Part shown: piece after piece, positions 2,902 to 24,870 of the stretch
How the letters are laid out: each line of letters opens with the position of its first letter
Numbering within the stretch: position 1 is the first letter of the stretch
DNA from: a virus
Lineage: Duplodnaviria; Caudoviricetes
Reading direction: 5' to 3' (one strand)
IMG/VR virus record: IMGVR_UViG_3300043434_000734
Span: 128,001 to 192,000 of that record
DNA length: 64,000 nt
Position numbers and translations under genes: made by a program
The notes under the pieces: generated by a model
Database searches by the model: none
Told to the model about the DNA's origin: nothing
What the model saw: the letters and a program-made list of their open reading frames with translations, nothing else

Positions 2902-3972
2902 GTGTTAACTACCTTAGAAAAATATCACAAAGATGGTTTGTTACATAAACAAACACACCCGACTCTTGATTTAACTATTTGGAATTACACCCCAAAAGTT
3001 CAGTATGAAAAATTATGGGATGAAATCACAATACAATGTCGTGGATTGGTAACTAATTCTAATGGTGACATTGTTGCTCGACCATTTAAGAAATTCTTTA
3101 ATTATGAAGAACATAAACCAGAAGAGATACCAAACGAAGAATTTGTTGTTTATGAAAAATTAGACGGTTCATTAGGTATTTTATTTAATTACCAAGGGGA
3201 ATGGATATTGTGCACTCGTGGATCATTCACATCACCCCAAGCAATTAAGGGTAAAGAGATTCTTAATAGACACGATATAAGTGCGTTAAGAAAAGATAAT
3301 ACACTTTTATTTGAAATTATTTATCCTGAAAATAGAATTGTTGTTGATTATGGTAACGAAGAAAAATTAGTGGTAATTGGTGGTATACATACTGAAACCG
3401 GCGATGAAATATCCGATGAAGGTTTATCTTTTTTACAACAAGCTGGGTTTGAAGTTGTAACAACATATAAAACTTGGGGTGAAGGTTATGATTTACTTAA
3501 AGAGGATATAAGTAAAGATAAAGAAGGATATGTAATTCGTTTTAAAAGTGGTTTTCGTATGAAAATCAAAGGAGACGAATATGTAAGACTTCATCGTATT
3601 TTAACAAACATATCTAATAGGGATATATGGGAGTATTTAAAGGACAATAGACCGTTTGATGAATTACTCGAAAAAGTACCTGATGAATTTAACGATTGGG
3701 TTAAAAAAACCGTTAGTGATTTAAGATATGGATGTTACCAATTAAGAGAACGCGCAGGTAAATTACACGATGGTTTTAGATATGGTAAATTTGGAGACAG
3801 AGAGGTCGAACCATCTAAAAAAGAATTTGCGGAATTTGTAATGAAACAACAAGAAGTCCTACACGGTATTATGTTTGCTATGTGGGACGGTAATAATAAA
3901 AAAGTAGACGAAATAATTTGGAAATTAGTGAAACCAAAATATTCAAAACCATTTAAGAAAGATGAAAATTGA
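2902..3972 (+). CDS. T4 Rnl1-like RNA ligase
   Basis: CRGLV, RPFKKFFN, motif I EKLDGSLG, TRGSF, FEII, EGYVIRF, KIKG. Confidence 0.88.
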   Translation: MLTTLEKYHKDGLLHKQTHPTLDLTIWNYTPKVQYEKLWDEITIQCRGLVTNSNGDIVARPFKKFFNYEEHKPEEIPNEEFVVYEKLDGSLGILFNYQGEWILCTRGSFTSPQAIKGKEILNRHDISALRKDNTLLFEIIYPENRIVVDYGNEEKLVVIGGIHTETGDEISDEGLSFLQQAGFEVVTTYKTWGEGYDLLKEDISKDKEGYVIRFKSGFRMKIKGDEYVRLHRILTNISNRDIWEYLKDNRPFDELLEKVPDEFNDWVKKTVSDLRYGCYQLRERAGKLHDGFRYGKFGDREVEPSKKEFAEFVMKQQEVLHGIMFAMWDGNNKKVDEIIWKLVKPKYSKPFKKDEN

Positions 3973-8568: not shown

Positions 8569-9180
8569 TTATCCTTCCATATGTATTTCTGCGTATTCAT
8601 CTTTTACTTTACCACACTTCAAACATTCTTCACTTCCGTCACCATCTAAATCCCCCCAAACGTGTTCACATTGTCTATGAGTAAAGTATTCGTCGATTTT
8701 ACCGTCACCATCAAAGTCCAAACCATCCATTACCCCATCACCATCTTCATCAATTTCAGTACCCTTCTTTTCAATTTTTGTTGTCTCATCAATTTCTATT
8801 GTATTTTCAGTTGTCAATTCTGGTAATACTAAAGGAGATACGGACATCGGTACTATCGGATTGTTTGGTCCGTCATTAGTATTACTTAACGATATGCCAT
8901 CTTCCTCATCCATTTTTTGAACTAACATTTTATCTTTATCCGTATCACTAAACCAATAATCAATAATTTTACCGTAACTACCGATAAAGGCACCCAACAA
9001 TAATAAAAGAAGTTCTTTCCACTCTCCCTCTATTGCTGATTTATTTAAAATCGCACCAAATATCCCCATTATAATTATCATAAAACCACCCAATACGATG
9101 GCCGTGATGAACCATCTACGCTTCATCATACTACTCAATAATTCCTTAAATCCACTTGGTGGTTGTTGTTGTTCACTCAT
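8569..9180 (-). CDS. Two-TM membrane protein with DxDxDG Ca-binding-like repeats
   Basis: TM segments, then DEDGDG, DFDGDG, DLDGDG and CEH..CLKC. Confidence 0.6.
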   Translation of the reverse strand: MSEQQQPPSGFKELLSSMMKRRWFITAIVLGGFMIIIMGIFGAILNKSAIEGEWKELLLLLLGAFIGSYGKIIDYWFSDTDKDKMLVQKMDEEDGISLSNTNDGPNNPIVPMSVSPLVLPELTTENTIEIDETTKIEKKGTEIDEDGDGVMDGLDFDGDGKIDEYFTHRQCEHVWGDLDGDGSEECLKCGKVKDEYAEIHMEG

Positions 9181-15950: not shown

Positions 15951-16023
15951 GGGCCTGATGTCAACGGCAGACCATCTGATTTGCAATCAGAATGAATGGG
16001 TTCGATTCCCACAGCGTCCACCA
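15951..16023 (+). tRNA. trnA: tRNA-Ala(TGC), CCA encoded
   Basis: tctga-tttgcaa-tcaga; G3:U70; TTCGA loop; one bulge in the acceptor stem. Confidence 0.8.
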
Positions 16024-18876: not shown

Positions 18877-18964
18877 GGAGAGATGGCAGAGTTGGTCGAT
18901 TGCGTCAGACTTGAAATCTGAAGAACGGGAAACTGTTCCGTGGGTTCGAATCCTACTCTCTCCG
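18877..18964 (+). tRNA. trnS: tRNA-Ser(TGA) copy 2
   Basis: tcaga-cttgaaa-tctga; long variable arm; G73. Confidence 0.93.
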
Positions 18965-19004
18965 CGAACCAAAAGTCCAATGGGGAGGATCCACTACACG
19001 ATTA

Positions 19005-19204
19005 GCAATCGGAAGAGTAGATTAAGACTAAGGTTGCTTGACACTCCGGAAAGACGAGAAAACAATCAAGTAGAGTGGTGGTACACTCACTATGTATGCA
19101 TCGTAAGATGGACGCCTTCTTCCCGCAGAGCACATAGATATGTCGTTTAGTGATATGGAAGAACACGGGAACGATTTGTAGGTTCGAATCCTATCTTGAT
19201 TGCC
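19005..19204 (+). ncRNA. 200-nt RNA closed by a tRNA-like acceptor stem and T-arm
   Basis: GCAATCGG pairs with TTGATTGC; GTAGG-TTCGAAT-CCTAT; several internal hairpins. Confidence 0.55.
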
Positions 19205-19317
19205 TTTCCTTTCAGGGTAACGACCTGATAAATTTTGAGATACTAAAGTTGTAACACCAGGGACTCAACGAAAGAAAGTCGGAAACTAAACTTGACTGAT
19301 GGAAAGACATCAAATTT

Positions 19318-19447
19318 GGGAAGGTAGCAGAAATGGAAGATGCGTTATACGAAAGCTACGTATAAGACGCGATGACGGACACAAAAGTACAATGTGTTGA
19401 ACTAAAGATTACGCATCGTTATGGGTTCGATTCCCACTCCTGTCCCA
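19318..19447 (+). ncRNA. 130-nt tRNA-like RNA with non-canonical anticodon loop and giant variable arm
   Basis: GGGAAGG/CCTGTCCC, D-arm GCA-gaaatggaaga-TGC, TTATACG-aaagcta-CGTATAA, ATGGG-TTCGATT-CCCAC. Confidence 0.65.
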
Positions 19448-19648
19448 CAGGTCGTCTTTTTATATTGCTCAGTTTGTGGAGTTAACTTTAGAGACGTTAA
19501 ACTTAAAGTAATGAATCCAAGCCCTTTTAAAGTTGTGGTACAACTGGGTCCATTTCCTTACCGAAGGAGGTTTCCGGACCTAAAATAGAAGCCTCAAACG
19601 ACTGAAAAAAGTAGGGACATATGAGACTACCTAATCTCGTCCCGAAAT

Positions 19649-19720
19649 GGCCCTATCGACAAGCGGTTAAGTCACGTCCCTTTCACGGATGAGTCACGGG
19701 TTCGAATCCCGTTGGGGCTA
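19649..19720 (+). tRNA. trnE: tRNA-Glu(TTC)
   Basis: cgtcc-ctttcac-ggatg. Confidence 0.92.
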
Positions 19721-19735
19721 CTAAATGGTTTTACT

Positions 19736-22661: not shown

Positions 22662-22811
22662 TGTAGTGTGACGAAACTTGGCAGACGTGCCCTCCTGTCT
22701 CGGGGGTGTGGAACAAGAAATAGGTTAATAATATGGGGTAGACCACCAGCCGGCCGGCGAAGTGTTATTAACTGAATCTCCATTTAAGTGGTTCGAATCC
22801 CTTCACTACAG
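22662..22811 (+). ncRNA. 150-nt tRNA-like RNA with ~80-nt variable arm and pyrimidine-37 loop
   Basis: TGTAGTG/CACTACA+G; D-arm ACG-aaacttggcaga-CGT; CCCTC-ctgtctc-GGGGG; GTTAATAATAT/GTGTTATTAAC; GGTTCGAATCC. Confidence 0.7.
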
Positions 22812-22848
22812 CACTAATAAACCAATAATTATAATAAATGAAAAAGTA

Positions 22849-23310
22849 ATGAAAAAATTCAGAACTCTCCACGGAACCCCAATTCCAGATGTAATCAATT
22901 ACATTAGAGAGTATATTTCAACAAGAGAGGATGTGGAAATTCTCATAGGATCAGATTCACAATCATATTCAAACAGGAAAACTGTTTATGGTGTTGTTAT
23001 TGCCCTTTATACAAAAGGTAAGGGTGCACACGTATTATGTACACGTGAGACATTACCTATGGAATATAATGTGGCATCGAGATTACTTGGTGAAGTTTGG
23101 AAATCAATTGAGATTGCTGAATTTTTAAAAGAGAATGGTTTACCAAAACCTACTTGGATTGATATTGACTTAAATCCCGACCCAAAATACAAATCAAATA
23201 ATGTTCTTAGACAAGCAGTTGGTATGGTTGAGGGTATGGGTTATAAAGTAAGGTACAAACACGTAGGTGCGTTAATGACATATGCCGCAAATCATTTAGT
23301 TAGGTTATAA
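22849..23310 (+). CDS. YkuK/DUF458-like RNase H-fold protein
   Basis: ILIGSDSQ, YGVVIAL..KGKGAHV, RLLGEVWKS, IDIDLNPD, AANHL; ATG at 22849. Confidence 0.8.
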   Translation: MKKFRTLHGTPIPDVINYIREYISTREDVEILIGSDSQSYSNRKTVYGVVIALYTKGKGAHVLCTRETLPMEYNVASRLLGEVWKSIEIAEFLKENGLPKPTWIDIDLNPDPKYKSNNVLRQAVGMVEGMGYKVRYKHVGALMTYAANHLVRL

Positions 23311-24060: not shown

Positions 24061-24870
24061 ATTGGCCGCCTATGGTCGATTAAAATAAACCACGAAAGTG
24101 GGATAAAGTGACGAGTCCTTGGTTGGGACAAGTTGCGGTTTCAGTAATGGAACTTGAGTAGGCAAGTGGAGTATCGTTGAACCTTAAGTACTGAGGGTAA
24201 CACTTTAGGGAAAGTGGTTTGATGACTGAGCAATCCGAGTTGTTTGGTTGAGGTGGGAACACCAATAAGAATAATCCATAGAGTTATTGTGAGAAATATG
24301 GTTATCCGACTATATGATTACGTGATTCAATATGATGGGAATCTTAAAACCGAAAGGTATGGTGAAGTACGAGTGGTGTCGTTATCATCCTTTATTAAAC
24401 TCTACCAAGGGTTTAGTTTTGAAGGGGTCCAAAAATATGGTAGCAGGGATGTTACAGAGAGTAGTTTAGTATCGAGTCGCTCAAAAGGTGGCTTGGCTAG
24501 GTGACGAACCACTACTTTCCAAATTCGGATAACTAAATTTTGTTAATTTTGGTTTAACAACTTAAAATCATACAAGAAAAAGTGTTCGTCAGTCGTTGTA
24601 GACAGGTGGCTACATAGTCGTGAGGGGTTCACGGCCACAAAGGGTCTCAAGCCCAATGTGATTTTTAAAAAAGTTCTCTAAACCCGCAAGGTTGAATCAG
24701 GGAGGCATCTTTGATGAGTAATGAGTATTAAAAGAGTATATAACGACTCAAGGATTGGTTAATCTAATTGACCGCCGCTGATTGGTACTACTCAAAAGGT
24801 AGTGGATATGGGAAGAATCAAATAATGTCCCTAAGTCAATCAAAAAATGGTGTAATCTCAGCCCTTTCTT
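24061..24870 (+). ncRNA. Large (~800 nt) structured ncRNA, GOLLD-like candidate
   Basis: G-rich, no credible ORF, many tetraloop hairpins (CCAC-GAAA-GTGG, ACC-GAAA-GGT, AGTCGC-TCAAAA-GGTGGCT, CTACT-CAAAA-GGTAG); own promoter and boxA; near the tRNA array. Confidence 0.6.

What the first reader, a model, noticed from the sequence alone, without database searches (positions are those of the whole stretch)
19318..19447. tRNA-like RNA with an extended anticodon stem, no U33 and a ~55-nt variable arm
Seen: recognisable acceptor, class II D-arm and T-arm, but the anticodon arm is 7 bp with loop AAAGCTA, and the variable arm is closed by ACGCGATG/CATCGT. Inference: it cannot decode normally. It could be a decoy for anticodon nucleases, T-box or stringent-response sensors, or synthetases (LeuRS and SerRS ignore the anticodon).
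Basis: partly seen in the sequence, partly recalled or inferred. Interest (0 to 1): 0.72.

Follow-up and report, generated by a model that had tools for sequence, protein, structure and literature searches.

The report
Non-decoding leucine-tRNA-shaped phage RNA
This 130-base stretch is a real, conserved phage gene for an RNA built on a leucine-tRNA frame that cannot read codons and carries an almost unchanging 50-base extra domain, found in giant and small uncultured lake phages; what it does is unknown.

Summary
Window 19318-19447 folds as a class II cloverleaf with a 7-bp anticodon stem, loop AAAGCUA (A, not U, at position 33) and a 51-nt branched variable arm. ARAGORN and Rfam's tRNA model do not call it.

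It is not a decaying pseudogene. I found 12 distinct full-length relatives in 20 other phage contigs. In that alignment 96% of pair cells form standard pairs, and 17 of 33 pairs show changes on both sides. Against its nearest relative it is 83% identical, while the neighbouring spacer is 48%.

The variable-arm domain is the best-kept part (41 of 57 columns invariant). The anticodon arm is the least kept. Discriminator A and an encoded C74 never vary. The frame is tRNA-Leu-like.

The gene is an optional cassette:
- it is cleanly absent from one relative that otherwise shares this stretch;
- it stands without tRNA neighbours in four other contigs, at least one from a small phage;
- two copies are broken chimeras.

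In other contigs the same frame carries unrelated interiors.

My best reading is a tRNA-processed scaffold RNA whose variable domain binds a partner. The decoy and leucine-charging ideas remain untested.

The scan noted this RNA (e1-5342704) and the frame family (e1-5376318, e1-5376335) before, on other DNA.

The parts
19312..19317 (+). AAATTT leader directly 5' of the RNA, with U at -1
   Evidence: Invariant in every window-clade copy, whatever lies upstream: tRNA-Ser, element A or a spacer. It is lost together with the RNA in the clean indel of L014.
19318..19324 (+). Acceptor stem, 5' strand (GGGAAGG)
   Evidence: Pairs with 19439-19441 and 19443-19446. Pair 4 is A-U here, U-A in L009 and U.G in L140 and L144.
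19327..19343 (+). D-arm, class II type: 3-bp stem GCA/UGC and an 11-nt loop with G18 G19
   Evidence: The stem covaries across the family: GCA/UGC, GCG/CGC, GUG/CAC. The main-group D-arm matches tRNA-Leu genes best.
19345..19365 (+). Extended anticodon arm: 7-bp stem (19345-19351 / 19359-19365) and 7-nt loop AAAGCTA (19352-19358), with A at position 33 and U at 37
   Evidence: Four of the 7 pairs differ on both sides from L009, and the seventh pair (34:42) changes on both sides in L144; the seventh pair shows G-C, A.C and A-U. All 7 pairs change on both sides across the family.
19369..19419 (+). Variable-arm domain: outer helix GCGATG/CATCGT (19369-19374 / 19414-19419), bulged A 19375, predicted CG/CG pairs (never varying), inner hairpin 19378-19398 with loop AAAGTACAA (19384-19392), single-stranded linker 19399-19411
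   Evidence: The most conserved region of the family: 85.7% mean identity and 41 of 57 columns invariant. The helices are supported by changes on both sides.
19422..19436 (+). T-arm: TGGG / TTCGATT / CCCA
   Evidence: Canonical T-loop. The stem covaries across the family, A-U against G-C at the second pair.
19439..19448 (+). Acceptor 3' strand (CCT, bulged G19442, TCCC), discriminator A19447 and encoded C19448
   Evidence: The bulged register is chosen by unguided RNAalifold. The discriminator A is invariant in all 12 full-length variants, and a C follows it in the window and all 12 newly found contigs and in the aligned clade copies.
19203..19317 (+). Spacer between tRNA-like element A and this RNA
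   Evidence: Absent in L009, where only AAATTT lies between A and B. A sequencing-run contig skips 19204-19316 and has AAA in its place.
19064..19202 (+). Neighbouring, independent tRNA-like element A (context only)
   Evidence: 81% identical to L009. It occurs without B in L014, and B occurs without it in L144.

Best explanation
This is a functional gene for a non-decoding RNA built on a class II tRNA-Leu frame.

Shown: the cloverleaf is under purifying selection. The anticodon arm has no U33 and is lengthened to 7 layers. The roughly 50-nt variable-arm domain is the most conserved part. The gene is a discrete, optional cassette found in different phage types. In other contigs the same frame carries unrelated interiors.

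Inferred:
1. The RNA is cut out of the tRNA-array transcript, or its own transcript, by the host tRNA maturation enzymes. RNase P cuts at the U(-1)/G(+1) junction, 3' trimming stops after A73, and CCA is completed.
2. The tRNA elbow gives it tRNA-like stability.
3. The frame serves as a scaffold and handle.
4. The invariant variable domain is the working part. Its hairpin loop reads RAAGUACAA and its linker holds GAAGAUUACG. It docks a conserved partner, most likely a host or phage protein, in phage-host conflict.

Because the frame keeps tRNA-Leu marks, including A73 and the Leu-type D-arm, the RNA may also be leucylated. This reading does not depend on that.
For: Structure and selection:
- RNAalifold finds the cloverleaf without guidance.
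- 96.2% of pair cells are paired, 17 of 33 pairs change on both sides, and 0 of 500 shuffles match the observed values.
- All 15 stem substitutions between the window and L009 keep pairing.
- Window against L009: this RNA is 83% identical, the adjacent spacer 48%, tRNA-Leu 72% and tRNA-Glu 93%.

Non-decoding: neither ARAGORN nor Rfam's tRNA model calls it. No member of the family has U at position 33: it is A in the AAAGCUA and GAGGCUA loops and G in the AGCAAGA loop.

Conservation by region: variable domain 41 of 57 columns invariant, anticodon arm 1 of 22, discriminator A invariant. C74 is encoded in the window and all 12 newly found contigs, and the leader is A/U-rich with U at -1 in most.

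tRNA-Leu origin: the best hits of model R1 outside the family are tRNA-Leu genes, 32.6 bits in relatives and 27 bits in T4. The D-arm matches Leu genes best.

Cassette behaviour:
- A clean indel in L014 compared with L009.
- No tRNA within 3 kb in L148, L155, L156 and L158. In L155 it lies between replication genes and the terminase gene.
- L156 and L148 have flanking proteins 77-100% identical (most 95-100%) but different anticodon arms.

Shared frame: frame RNAs with the same or near-identical ends carry unrelated interiors in L149, L157, L158, L025 and L040.

Weak support for expression: a 152-nt contig from a freshwater metatranscriptome covers 19232-19383 with 3 differences.
Against: - No partner has been identified.
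- No protein gene is consistently adjacent to it.
- I found no tRNA-dependent enzyme in the window.
- Processing, CCA addition and stability are inferred from sequence only.
- RNA-library contigs can contain DNA, so transcription is not shown.
- Two of the 15 distinct variants (L141, L143) have lost the 3' acceptor strand through fusion to another tRNA's 3' end. One relative that shares this stretch lacks the gene altogether. It is therefore dispensable, at least in some settings.
- The invariant single-stranded segments could serve tertiary folding rather than partner binding.
Confidence: 0.5

Rival explanations
1. Counter-defence decoy or sponge. The RNA imitates a class II host tRNA and soaks up, or is cut in place of, a host tRNA-directed immune nuclease or tRNA-sensing protein.
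For: The distribution is patchy and cassette-like, and one sub-module varies quickly between near-identical phages. That pattern is typical of arms-race genes. The phage carries an Rnl1-type RNA ligase (window 2902-3972). In T4, from my own knowledge, that enzyme repairs tRNA cut by an anticodon nuclease. Published defence systems (Septu, retron-Eco7) cut the variable loop of class II tRNA-Tyr, and phage tRNA-Tyr copies counter them (PMC13096335).
Against: The anticodon loop does not mimic a real one: it has no U33 and the stem is lengthened. The arm is the least conserved part. The conserved variable domain is far larger than any host class II variable arm, so it is a poor look-alike. RNA ligases also occur in relatives that lack this RNA.
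Confidence: 0.2
2. Leucine-charged non-ribosomal tRNA. Host LeuRS, which does not read the anticodon, charges the RNA. The Leu-RNA then either ties up LeuRS or feeds a non-ribosomal aminoacyl-transfer reaction, with the variable domain recruiting the transferase.
For: The frame is tRNA-Leu-type, A73 is invariant, G18 G19 and the class II D-arm are present, and C74 is encoded. Established knowledge: bacterial LeuRS identity rests on A73 and core tertiary features, not on the anticodon or the variable arm.
Against: No aminoacyl-transferase, Fem-type, L/F-transferase or synthetase gene turned up among the window ORFs scanned or beside solitary copies. The window clade has a bulge in the acceptor stem and an A.C pair in the T-stem, which may hinder synthetase or EF-Tu binding. 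Charging was not tested.
Confidence: 0.15
3. A decaying tRNA-Leu pseudogene or selfish remnant with no function.
For: Two chimeric copies have lost the 3' acceptor strand. The gene is absent from one relative that shares this stretch. The acceptor and T-stem of the window clade are irregular.
Against: All stem substitutions are compensatory. The RNA is 83% identical where the adjacent spacer is 48%. In the variable domain 41 of 57 columns are invariant across different phage types. Sequences also spread across unrelated genome contexts.
Confidence: 0.05
4. An unusual decoding tRNA, for example an alanine reader (positions 34-36 read AGC or GGC) or an amber or four-base reader using the CUA in the loop.
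For: Positions 34-36 read AGC in the window and GGC in the L009 clade, and both are alanine anticodons. CUA lies at the 3' end of the loop.
Against: No member has U33. Most have U37. The stem is two layers too long, so the loop sits out of register with the acceptor end. The G3:U70 alanine mark is not conserved. The L153 and L156 members carry a different loop, AGCAAGA. The window's ORFs read normally under table 11.
Confidence: 0.03

Closest known systems
Phage T4 species 1 and species 2 RNAs (rnaC 139 nt, rnaD 119 nt)
   Same: Both are stable RNAs of about 120-140 nt encoded inside the tRNA gene cluster of a T4-type phage. They are annotated 'small, stable RNA'. rnaC has a T-arm and a paired-end frame. 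Their function is unknown.
   Different: I detected no homology: model R1 matches only the rnaC T-arm, at 7.5 bits. The T4 RNAs lack the Leu-type D-arm and the conserved variable-arm domain. This family also occurs outside tRNA clusters and in small phages.
Class II bacterial or phage tRNA-Leu (Rfam RF00005)
   Same: Shared features are a 7-bp acceptor, U8, a 3-bp D-stem with a Leu-type D-loop, a canonical T-arm, discriminator A73 and a long variable arm. tRNA-Leu genes are the best hits of the family model outside the family.
   Different: It has no U33 and most members have U37. The anticodon arm has 7 layers. The variable arm is about 51 nt against roughly 13-21 nt. RF00005 and ARAGORN do not call it.
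Engineered 'tRNA scaffold' chimeras
   Same: A tRNA frame gives an inserted structured RNA correct processing and stability. Here one constant frame carries many different interiors.
   Different: Those are laboratory constructs with the insert placed in the anticodon stem. Here the system is natural, the conserved insert sits at the variable arm, and an anticodon-like arm is kept.
YrlA (bacterial and phage Y RNA-like tRNA mimic, Rfam RF02553) and the tRNA-like domain of tmRNA
   Same: Both are non-decoding RNAs that mimic the tRNA elbow and acceptor and are handled by tRNA enzymes.
   Different: No Rfam match to either at E up to 10. I found no Ro or RtcB gene among the window ORFs scanned. 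Unlike tmRNA, there is no mRNA-like reading frame.
allo-tRNAs (Mukai et al. 2017, PMC5389517; abstract seen)
   Same: Both are non-canonical cloverleaf tRNAs found in bacteria and phages through metagenomics.
   Different: allo-tRNAs are defined by 8/4 or 9/3 acceptor/T branches. This family is 7/5 in the main group, and 7 plus a bulge over 4 plus an A.C pair in the window clade.

Membership tests
Canonical decoding tRNA (Rfam RF00005 / ARAGORN) | Scores at or above the RF00005 gathering threshold (29 bits), or is called by ARAGORN | tested here: not met
   Absent from ARAGORN's 24 tRNA calls and Rfam's 25 tRNA matches in the window. At E up to 10 there is only a 16.6-bit partial tRNA-Sec match.
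Canonical decoding tRNA (Rfam RF00005 / ARAGORN) | 5-bp anticodon stem with a 7-nt loop, U33 and a purine at 37 | tested here: not met
   The stem has 7 bp or layers, kept by compensatory change. Position 33 is never U, and U is at 37 in most members.
Canonical decoding tRNA (Rfam RF00005 / ARAGORN) | Acceptor stem, D-arm with G18 G19, and a T-arm with the TTCRA loop | tested here: met
   All three are present and covary. The window clade has one bulged base in the acceptor 3' strand.
Class II tRNA-Leu | Discriminator A73, 3-bp D-stem with a Leu-type D-loop, long variable arm | tested here: met
   A73 is invariant. The D-arm matches Leu genes best. The best outside hits of R1 are tRNA-Leu genes.
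Class II tRNA-Leu | A leucine anticodon in a functional loop, and aminoacylation by LeuRS | not testable with these tools
   Only L153 and L156 keep CAA at positions 34-36, and they have G33. Charging needs an experiment.
Phage T4 rnaC/rnaD | Sequence or structure homology to T4 species 1 or species 2 RNA | tested here: not met
   With filters off, R1 gives 7.5 bits on the rnaC T-arm only.
Phage tRNA-Leu-frame RNAs with exchangeable interiors (a class noted by this scan; I found no published description) | Constant acceptor, D and T frame (AGUCAGG...CCUGACU-A type) around an unrelated interior | tested here: met
   Main-group members of this family use exactly that frame. The same frame holds other interiors in L149, L157, L158 and L025; L040 holds another on a related frame (GGUUAGG...CCUAACC-A). 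The window clade's frame has diverged.
tRNA pseudogene | Neutral decay: no compensatory change, and divergence like that of the spacers | tested here: not met

The most novel reading that the evidence does not exclude
Uncultured lake phages, and per earlier notes of this scan many other phages, may run a natural 'tRNA display' platform. One constant, probably leucine-chargeable tRNA-Leu frame is matured by host tRNA enzymes. It carries exchangeable structured payloads that recombine between phages through the constant ends. This RNA would be the payload type with an invariant 50-nt aptamer-like domain that captures a conserved host factor during infection.
Probability: 0.3. Interest if true: 0.85.

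Novelty: new variant of a known kind. Interest (0 to 1): 0.64.

Why it matters
Phage tRNA clusters are usually explained by codon supply or by replacing tRNAs that host defences destroy. The two tRNA-like 'stable RNAs' of T4 have had no known role since the 1970s.

This gene shows that tRNA-shaped RNAs which cannot decode are under strong selection. It also shows that they move between unrelated phages, and that what they conserve is an added domain rather than the anticodon.

If the variable domain binds a host factor, or if the frame is charged, this would be a new way for viruses to exploit the tRNA machinery. It would also be a natural counterpart of the tRNA scaffolds used in RNA engineering.

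The strongly conserved 50-nt domain gives a concrete handle for pull-down experiments and structure determination.

Tried and rejected
- **Exact-word scans of IMG/VR** with window-specific ends found nothing.
- **Protein-anchored scan of metagenome contigs** found no relative.
- **Cultured phage genomes (INPHARED):** only tRNA-Ser matches for the region, and no match for the main-group member.
- **GTDB species genomes:** the one pattern match was chance, with no model hit.
- **No whole genome is held** for the window.
- **Single-sequence fold energy** is not significant (z = -1.03).
- **Complementarity search:** I looked for complements of the loop and linker segments in the window's RNA cluster. 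Only 7-9-nt matches came up, which I judge to be about the chance level.
- **Intramolecular pairings:** candidates between the linker and the loops were inspected by eye. None is supported by covariation.
- **Self-pairing loops:** AGCU in the anticodon loop is not conserved. GUAC in the variable hairpin is invariant, so it cannot be tested by covariation.
- **RNA ligase association:** a ligase lies about 460 nt from the RNA in L153, but the same ligases occur in relatives without it.
- **Conserved neighbouring protein:** none found.
- **tRNA-dependent transferase, synthetase, CCA enzyme, Ro or RtcB:** none among the window ORFs scanned.
- **L040 6008-6141:** it looked like a distant homologue, with a similar acceptor and an AAGUAUAC loop, but has no relative in the loci and only 14 bits with R1. 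I left it out of the family.
- **VIPR guide RNAs (bioRxiv 10.64898/2026.10.15.759431)** were checked as a possible class. They are GGYNN repeat arrays with no tRNA element.
- **Terminator:** the terminator-like hairpin 19439-19451 plus T-run is not conserved in the L009 clade.
- **Sequencing runs:** all word shares were low. Stretches of the window without contig cover say nothing.
- **MAFFT-based RNAalifold on 11 sequences** lost the acceptor and anticodon helices because indels were misaligned. The model-guided alignment keeps them.

Full report
**Setting.** The window comes from a large uncultured phage.
- A + strand RNA cluster holds 24 ARAGORN tRNAs between 16027 and 22657, a GOLLD RNA (24457-24864) and a tmRNA (27436-27839).
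- An HNH endonuclease gene sits inside the array.
- An Rnl1-type RNA ligase gene lies at 2902-3972.
- No whole genome is held for the window.

The finding lies between tRNA-Ser(UGA) 18877-18965 and tRNA-Glu(UUC) 19649-19721. Another odd tRNA-like element, A (19064-19202), precedes it.

**The observation.**
- Acceptor: GGGAAGG against 19439-19446.
- D-arm: 3-bp stem and an 11-nt loop with GG.
- Anticodon arm: a perfect 7-bp stem with loop AAAGCTA.
- Variable arm: 51 nt, closed by GCGATG/CATCGT.
- T-arm: canonical.
- Discriminator: A.

Two details were missed. The acceptor 3' strand has a bulged G (19442). The T-stem has 4 pairs plus an A.C mismatch, with one extra U before the acceptor. ARAGORN and Rfam's tRNA model do not call the element. 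On its own its fold energy is unremarkable.

**Relatives, first round.**
- Protein-anchored searches of IMG/VR fetched 135 related loci.
- BLAST and nhmmer found the element in only three of them, at about 83% identity.
- Looser patterns added copies from IMG/VR and from metagenomes.
- A pattern built only on the variable domain and T-loop then brought 12 more IMG/VR contigs, scoring 67-101 bits with model R1.
- The total is 12 distinct full-length variants, two chimeras and one truncated copy.
- Nothing was found in cultured phage genomes or in GTDB species genomes.

**Selection on structure.**
- Between the window and L009 there are 22 differences. Fifteen lie in stems and all 15 keep the pairing: seven double changes and one A-U to G.U.
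- The seventh pair of the anticodon stem runs G-C (L009), A.C (L013) and A-U (L144).
- RNAalifold, given five unaligned sequences, returns the same cloverleaf including the bulged acceptor register. It adds two pairs to the variable helix.
- On the full model-guided alignment (15 distinct rows), 96.2% of cells pair and 17 of 33 pairs change on both sides. No shuffle in 500 reaches the observed values, and slid controls pair at 27-47%.
- MFE folding of individual members gives the cloverleaf in most cases.
- Window against L009: this RNA 83%, the spacer to tRNA-Glu 48%, tRNA-Leu(UAA) 72%, tRNA-Ser 90%, tRNA-Glu 93%.

The element is therefore a selected gene.

**What is conserved.** Across the 12 full-length variants:

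| Region | Mean pairwise identity | Invariant columns |
|---|---|---|
| Variable domain | 85.7% | 41 of 57 |
| T-arm | 85.9% | 14 of 18 |
| Acceptor | 69% | 5 of 14 |
| Positions 8-9 and D-arm | 71% | 5 of 19 |
| Anticodon arm | 52% | 1 of 22 |
| Discriminator A | 100% | 1 of 1 |

- The invariant parts of the variable domain include its single-stranded pieces: the hairpin loop RAAGUACAA and the linker holding GAAGAUUACG.
- The anticodon arm always has 7 layers, made of 5-7 Watson-Crick pairs plus A.A or A.G. Its loop is AAAGCUA (window, L149, L155, L148, L157), GAGGCUA (L009 clade) or AGCAAGA (L153, L156).
- No member has U at position 33.
- A C follows the discriminator in the window and all 12 newly found contigs. 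The 5' leader is A/U-rich, mostly with U at -1. The phage's ordinary tRNA genes look the same in this respect.

These are the marks of an RNA matured like a tRNA but unable to place an anticodon in the ribosome.

**Origin.**
- Main-group members have a regular 7/5 frame: AGUCAGG, UG, a GCGGAAUUGGUAGACGC D-arm, an ACAGG/CCUGU T-stem, CCUGACU and A.
- That D-arm matches the tRNA-Leu genes of these phages best.
- The best hits of R1 outside the family are tRNA-Leu(UAA) genes (32.6 bits) and T4 tRNA-Leu (27 bits).
- L153 and L156 still read CAA, a leucine anticodon, at positions 34-36, followed by G37 A38 but preceded by G33.

The family therefore descends from a class II tRNA-Leu. The window clade is a derived branch, with a changed D-arm, the acceptor bulge and the A.C pair in the T-stem.

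**Cassette behaviour.**
- The Ser(UGA)-Glu(UUC) interval is 4-5 nt in L002, L007, L030 and L039. In other relatives it holds 140-750 nt of unrelated inserts.
- L009 has A, then AAATTT, then this RNA.
- The window and L015 have an extra spacer of about 110 nt between A and this RNA.
- L144 has this RNA directly after tRNA-Ser, without A.
- L014 and L011 have A followed directly by the sequence that follows this RNA elsewhere. That is a clean indel of leader plus RNA.
- L141 and L143 are chimeras. The RNA runs to the 3' half of its T-stem, just past the T-loop, and then continues as another tRNA's 3' end, so the acceptor cannot form.
- In L148, L155, L156 and L158 there is no tRNA within 3 kb.
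- In L155 it lies between a DnaB-type helicase, a Mom-like gene and small ORFs on one side, and a glycosyltransferase and the large terminase on the other. That is a compact small-phage layout.
- L156 and L148 share flanking proteins at 77-100% identity (most 95-100%), yet carry different anticodon arms.

**A wider class.**
- A simple scan for the frame ends found the AGUCAGG...CCUGACU-A frame around unrelated interiors of 94-203 nt in L149 (four more), L157 (two more), L158 and L025, and L040 on a related frame (GGUUAGG...CCUAACC-A).
- Rfam's tRNA model picks up 11 weak tRNA matches in 5 kb of L149; the 4 also caught by my frame scan and the 2 shown as alignments have the frame ends.
- This agrees with earlier notes of this scan on other genomes (e1-5376318, e1-5376335), which I checked only to this extent.
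- This RNA is the member type that keeps an anticodon-like arm and carries the conserved variable domain.

**Expression.** Contigs laid from four public runs give weak support.
- A 152-nt contig from a freshwater metatranscriptome covers 19232-19383 with three differences.
- A second freshwater metatranscriptome (X2) has low depth over 19363-19449.
- A contig from a run of uncertain type joins the end of A to this RNA with AAA in between, skipping the window's 113-nt spacer.
- RNA libraries can contain DNA, and contigs show neither ends nor strand.

**Mechanism.** The firmest statement is negative: this RNA does not decode. My best positive reading (confidence 0.5) has three parts.
1. The tRNA-Leu frame is a handle that secures RNase P and 3' processing, CCA addition and tRNA-like stability.
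2. The invariant variable domain is the working surface and binds a conserved partner.
3. The anticodon arm is a structural strut that may tune specificity.

The accessory, mobile and patchy distribution points to phage-host or phage-phage conflict.

[quoted passage not shown] It fits poorly with which part is conserved.

The leucine-charging reading (0.15) fits the frame. No transferase or other partner gene supports it.

GOLLD is often encoded near tRNA islands, and its cage has been proposed to hold phage tRNAs (PMC12286853). Solitary copies in L148, L155, L156 and L158, at least one of them in a small phage, suggest this RNA does not depend on a neighbouring tRNA array; I did not check whether those contigs carry GOLLD.

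**Comparison and novelty.**
- The nearest described things are T4 species 1 and 2 RNAs. The setting and size class are the same and the function is equally unknown, but I detected no homology.
- Ordinary tRNA-Leu is the ancestor, but the defining anticodon features are not met.
- I found no description of this family in four targeted searches of the open literature, two of which addressed this RNA class directly.
- I rate it a new variant of a known kind, namely phage non-decoding tRNA-like RNAs.

Noticed in passing
L149:7100-12300 (also L157:5271-5364 and 8584-8698, L025:7107-7309, L158, L040:6008-6141): A dense run of tRNA-Leu-frame RNAs. L149, L157, L158 and L025 have the same ends (AGUCAGG...CCUGACU-A) and L040 a related pair (GGUUAGG...CCUAACC-A), with unrelated interiors of 94-203 nt. 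Rfam's tRNA model scores 11 of them at 27-42 bits within 5 kb of L149.
   Followed up: partly
L042:1298-1409: A tRNA-Leu(UAA)-like gene with an insertion of about 26 nt inside the anticodon loop. It is far too short for a group I intron. R1 scores it 25.7 bits.
   Followed up: no
L141:1458-1588 and L143:2644-2758 (minus strand): Copies of this RNA whose 3' end, from the 3' half of the T-stem just past the T-loop, is replaced by another tRNA's 3' end. They look like deletions made by recombination between T-loops.
   Followed up: partly
window 19203-19317: A 113-115-nt spacer between element A and this RNA. It is absent in L009 and in one sequencing-run contig. Its last hairpin (TGATG/CATCA) reads GCTG/CAGC in L013, a compensatory change.
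   Followed up: partly
window 19448-19610: The stretch just downstream of this RNA is covered at depth 44 by a freshwater metatranscriptome contig with 15 differences. In that relative it follows a different tRNA-like 3' end. The whole B-to-Glu spacer (19448-19648) is only about 48% identical to L009.
   Followed up: no
window 15951-16020: Rfam calls a tRNA here (32 bits) that ARAGORN misses. It is 70 nt, the loop holds TGC (alanine), the CCA is encoded, and its T-arm shares 17 bases with this RNA's T-arm.
   Followed up: no
window 2902-3972: An Rnl1-type RNA ligase gene (phrog_562, E = 1e-71), the enzyme class that T4 uses to repair cut tRNA. A second ligase type (PF09414) lies beside this RNA in L153, and also in relatives that lack it.
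   Followed up: partly
L015:6392-6487 (= L013:615-710): ARAGORN calls a 96-nt 'tRNA-Val(GAC)' just upstream of element A. Its size suggests yet another oversized tRNA-like RNA.
   Followed up: no
L157:5378-5545: This family member carries a 37-nt insertion inside its D-loop, while the rest of the RNA is conserved.
   Followed up: no
window 22762-23310: An RNase H-like (PF04308) gene sits at the 3' end of the tRNA array. It is conserved in that position in 55 related IMG/VR loci.
   Followed up: no
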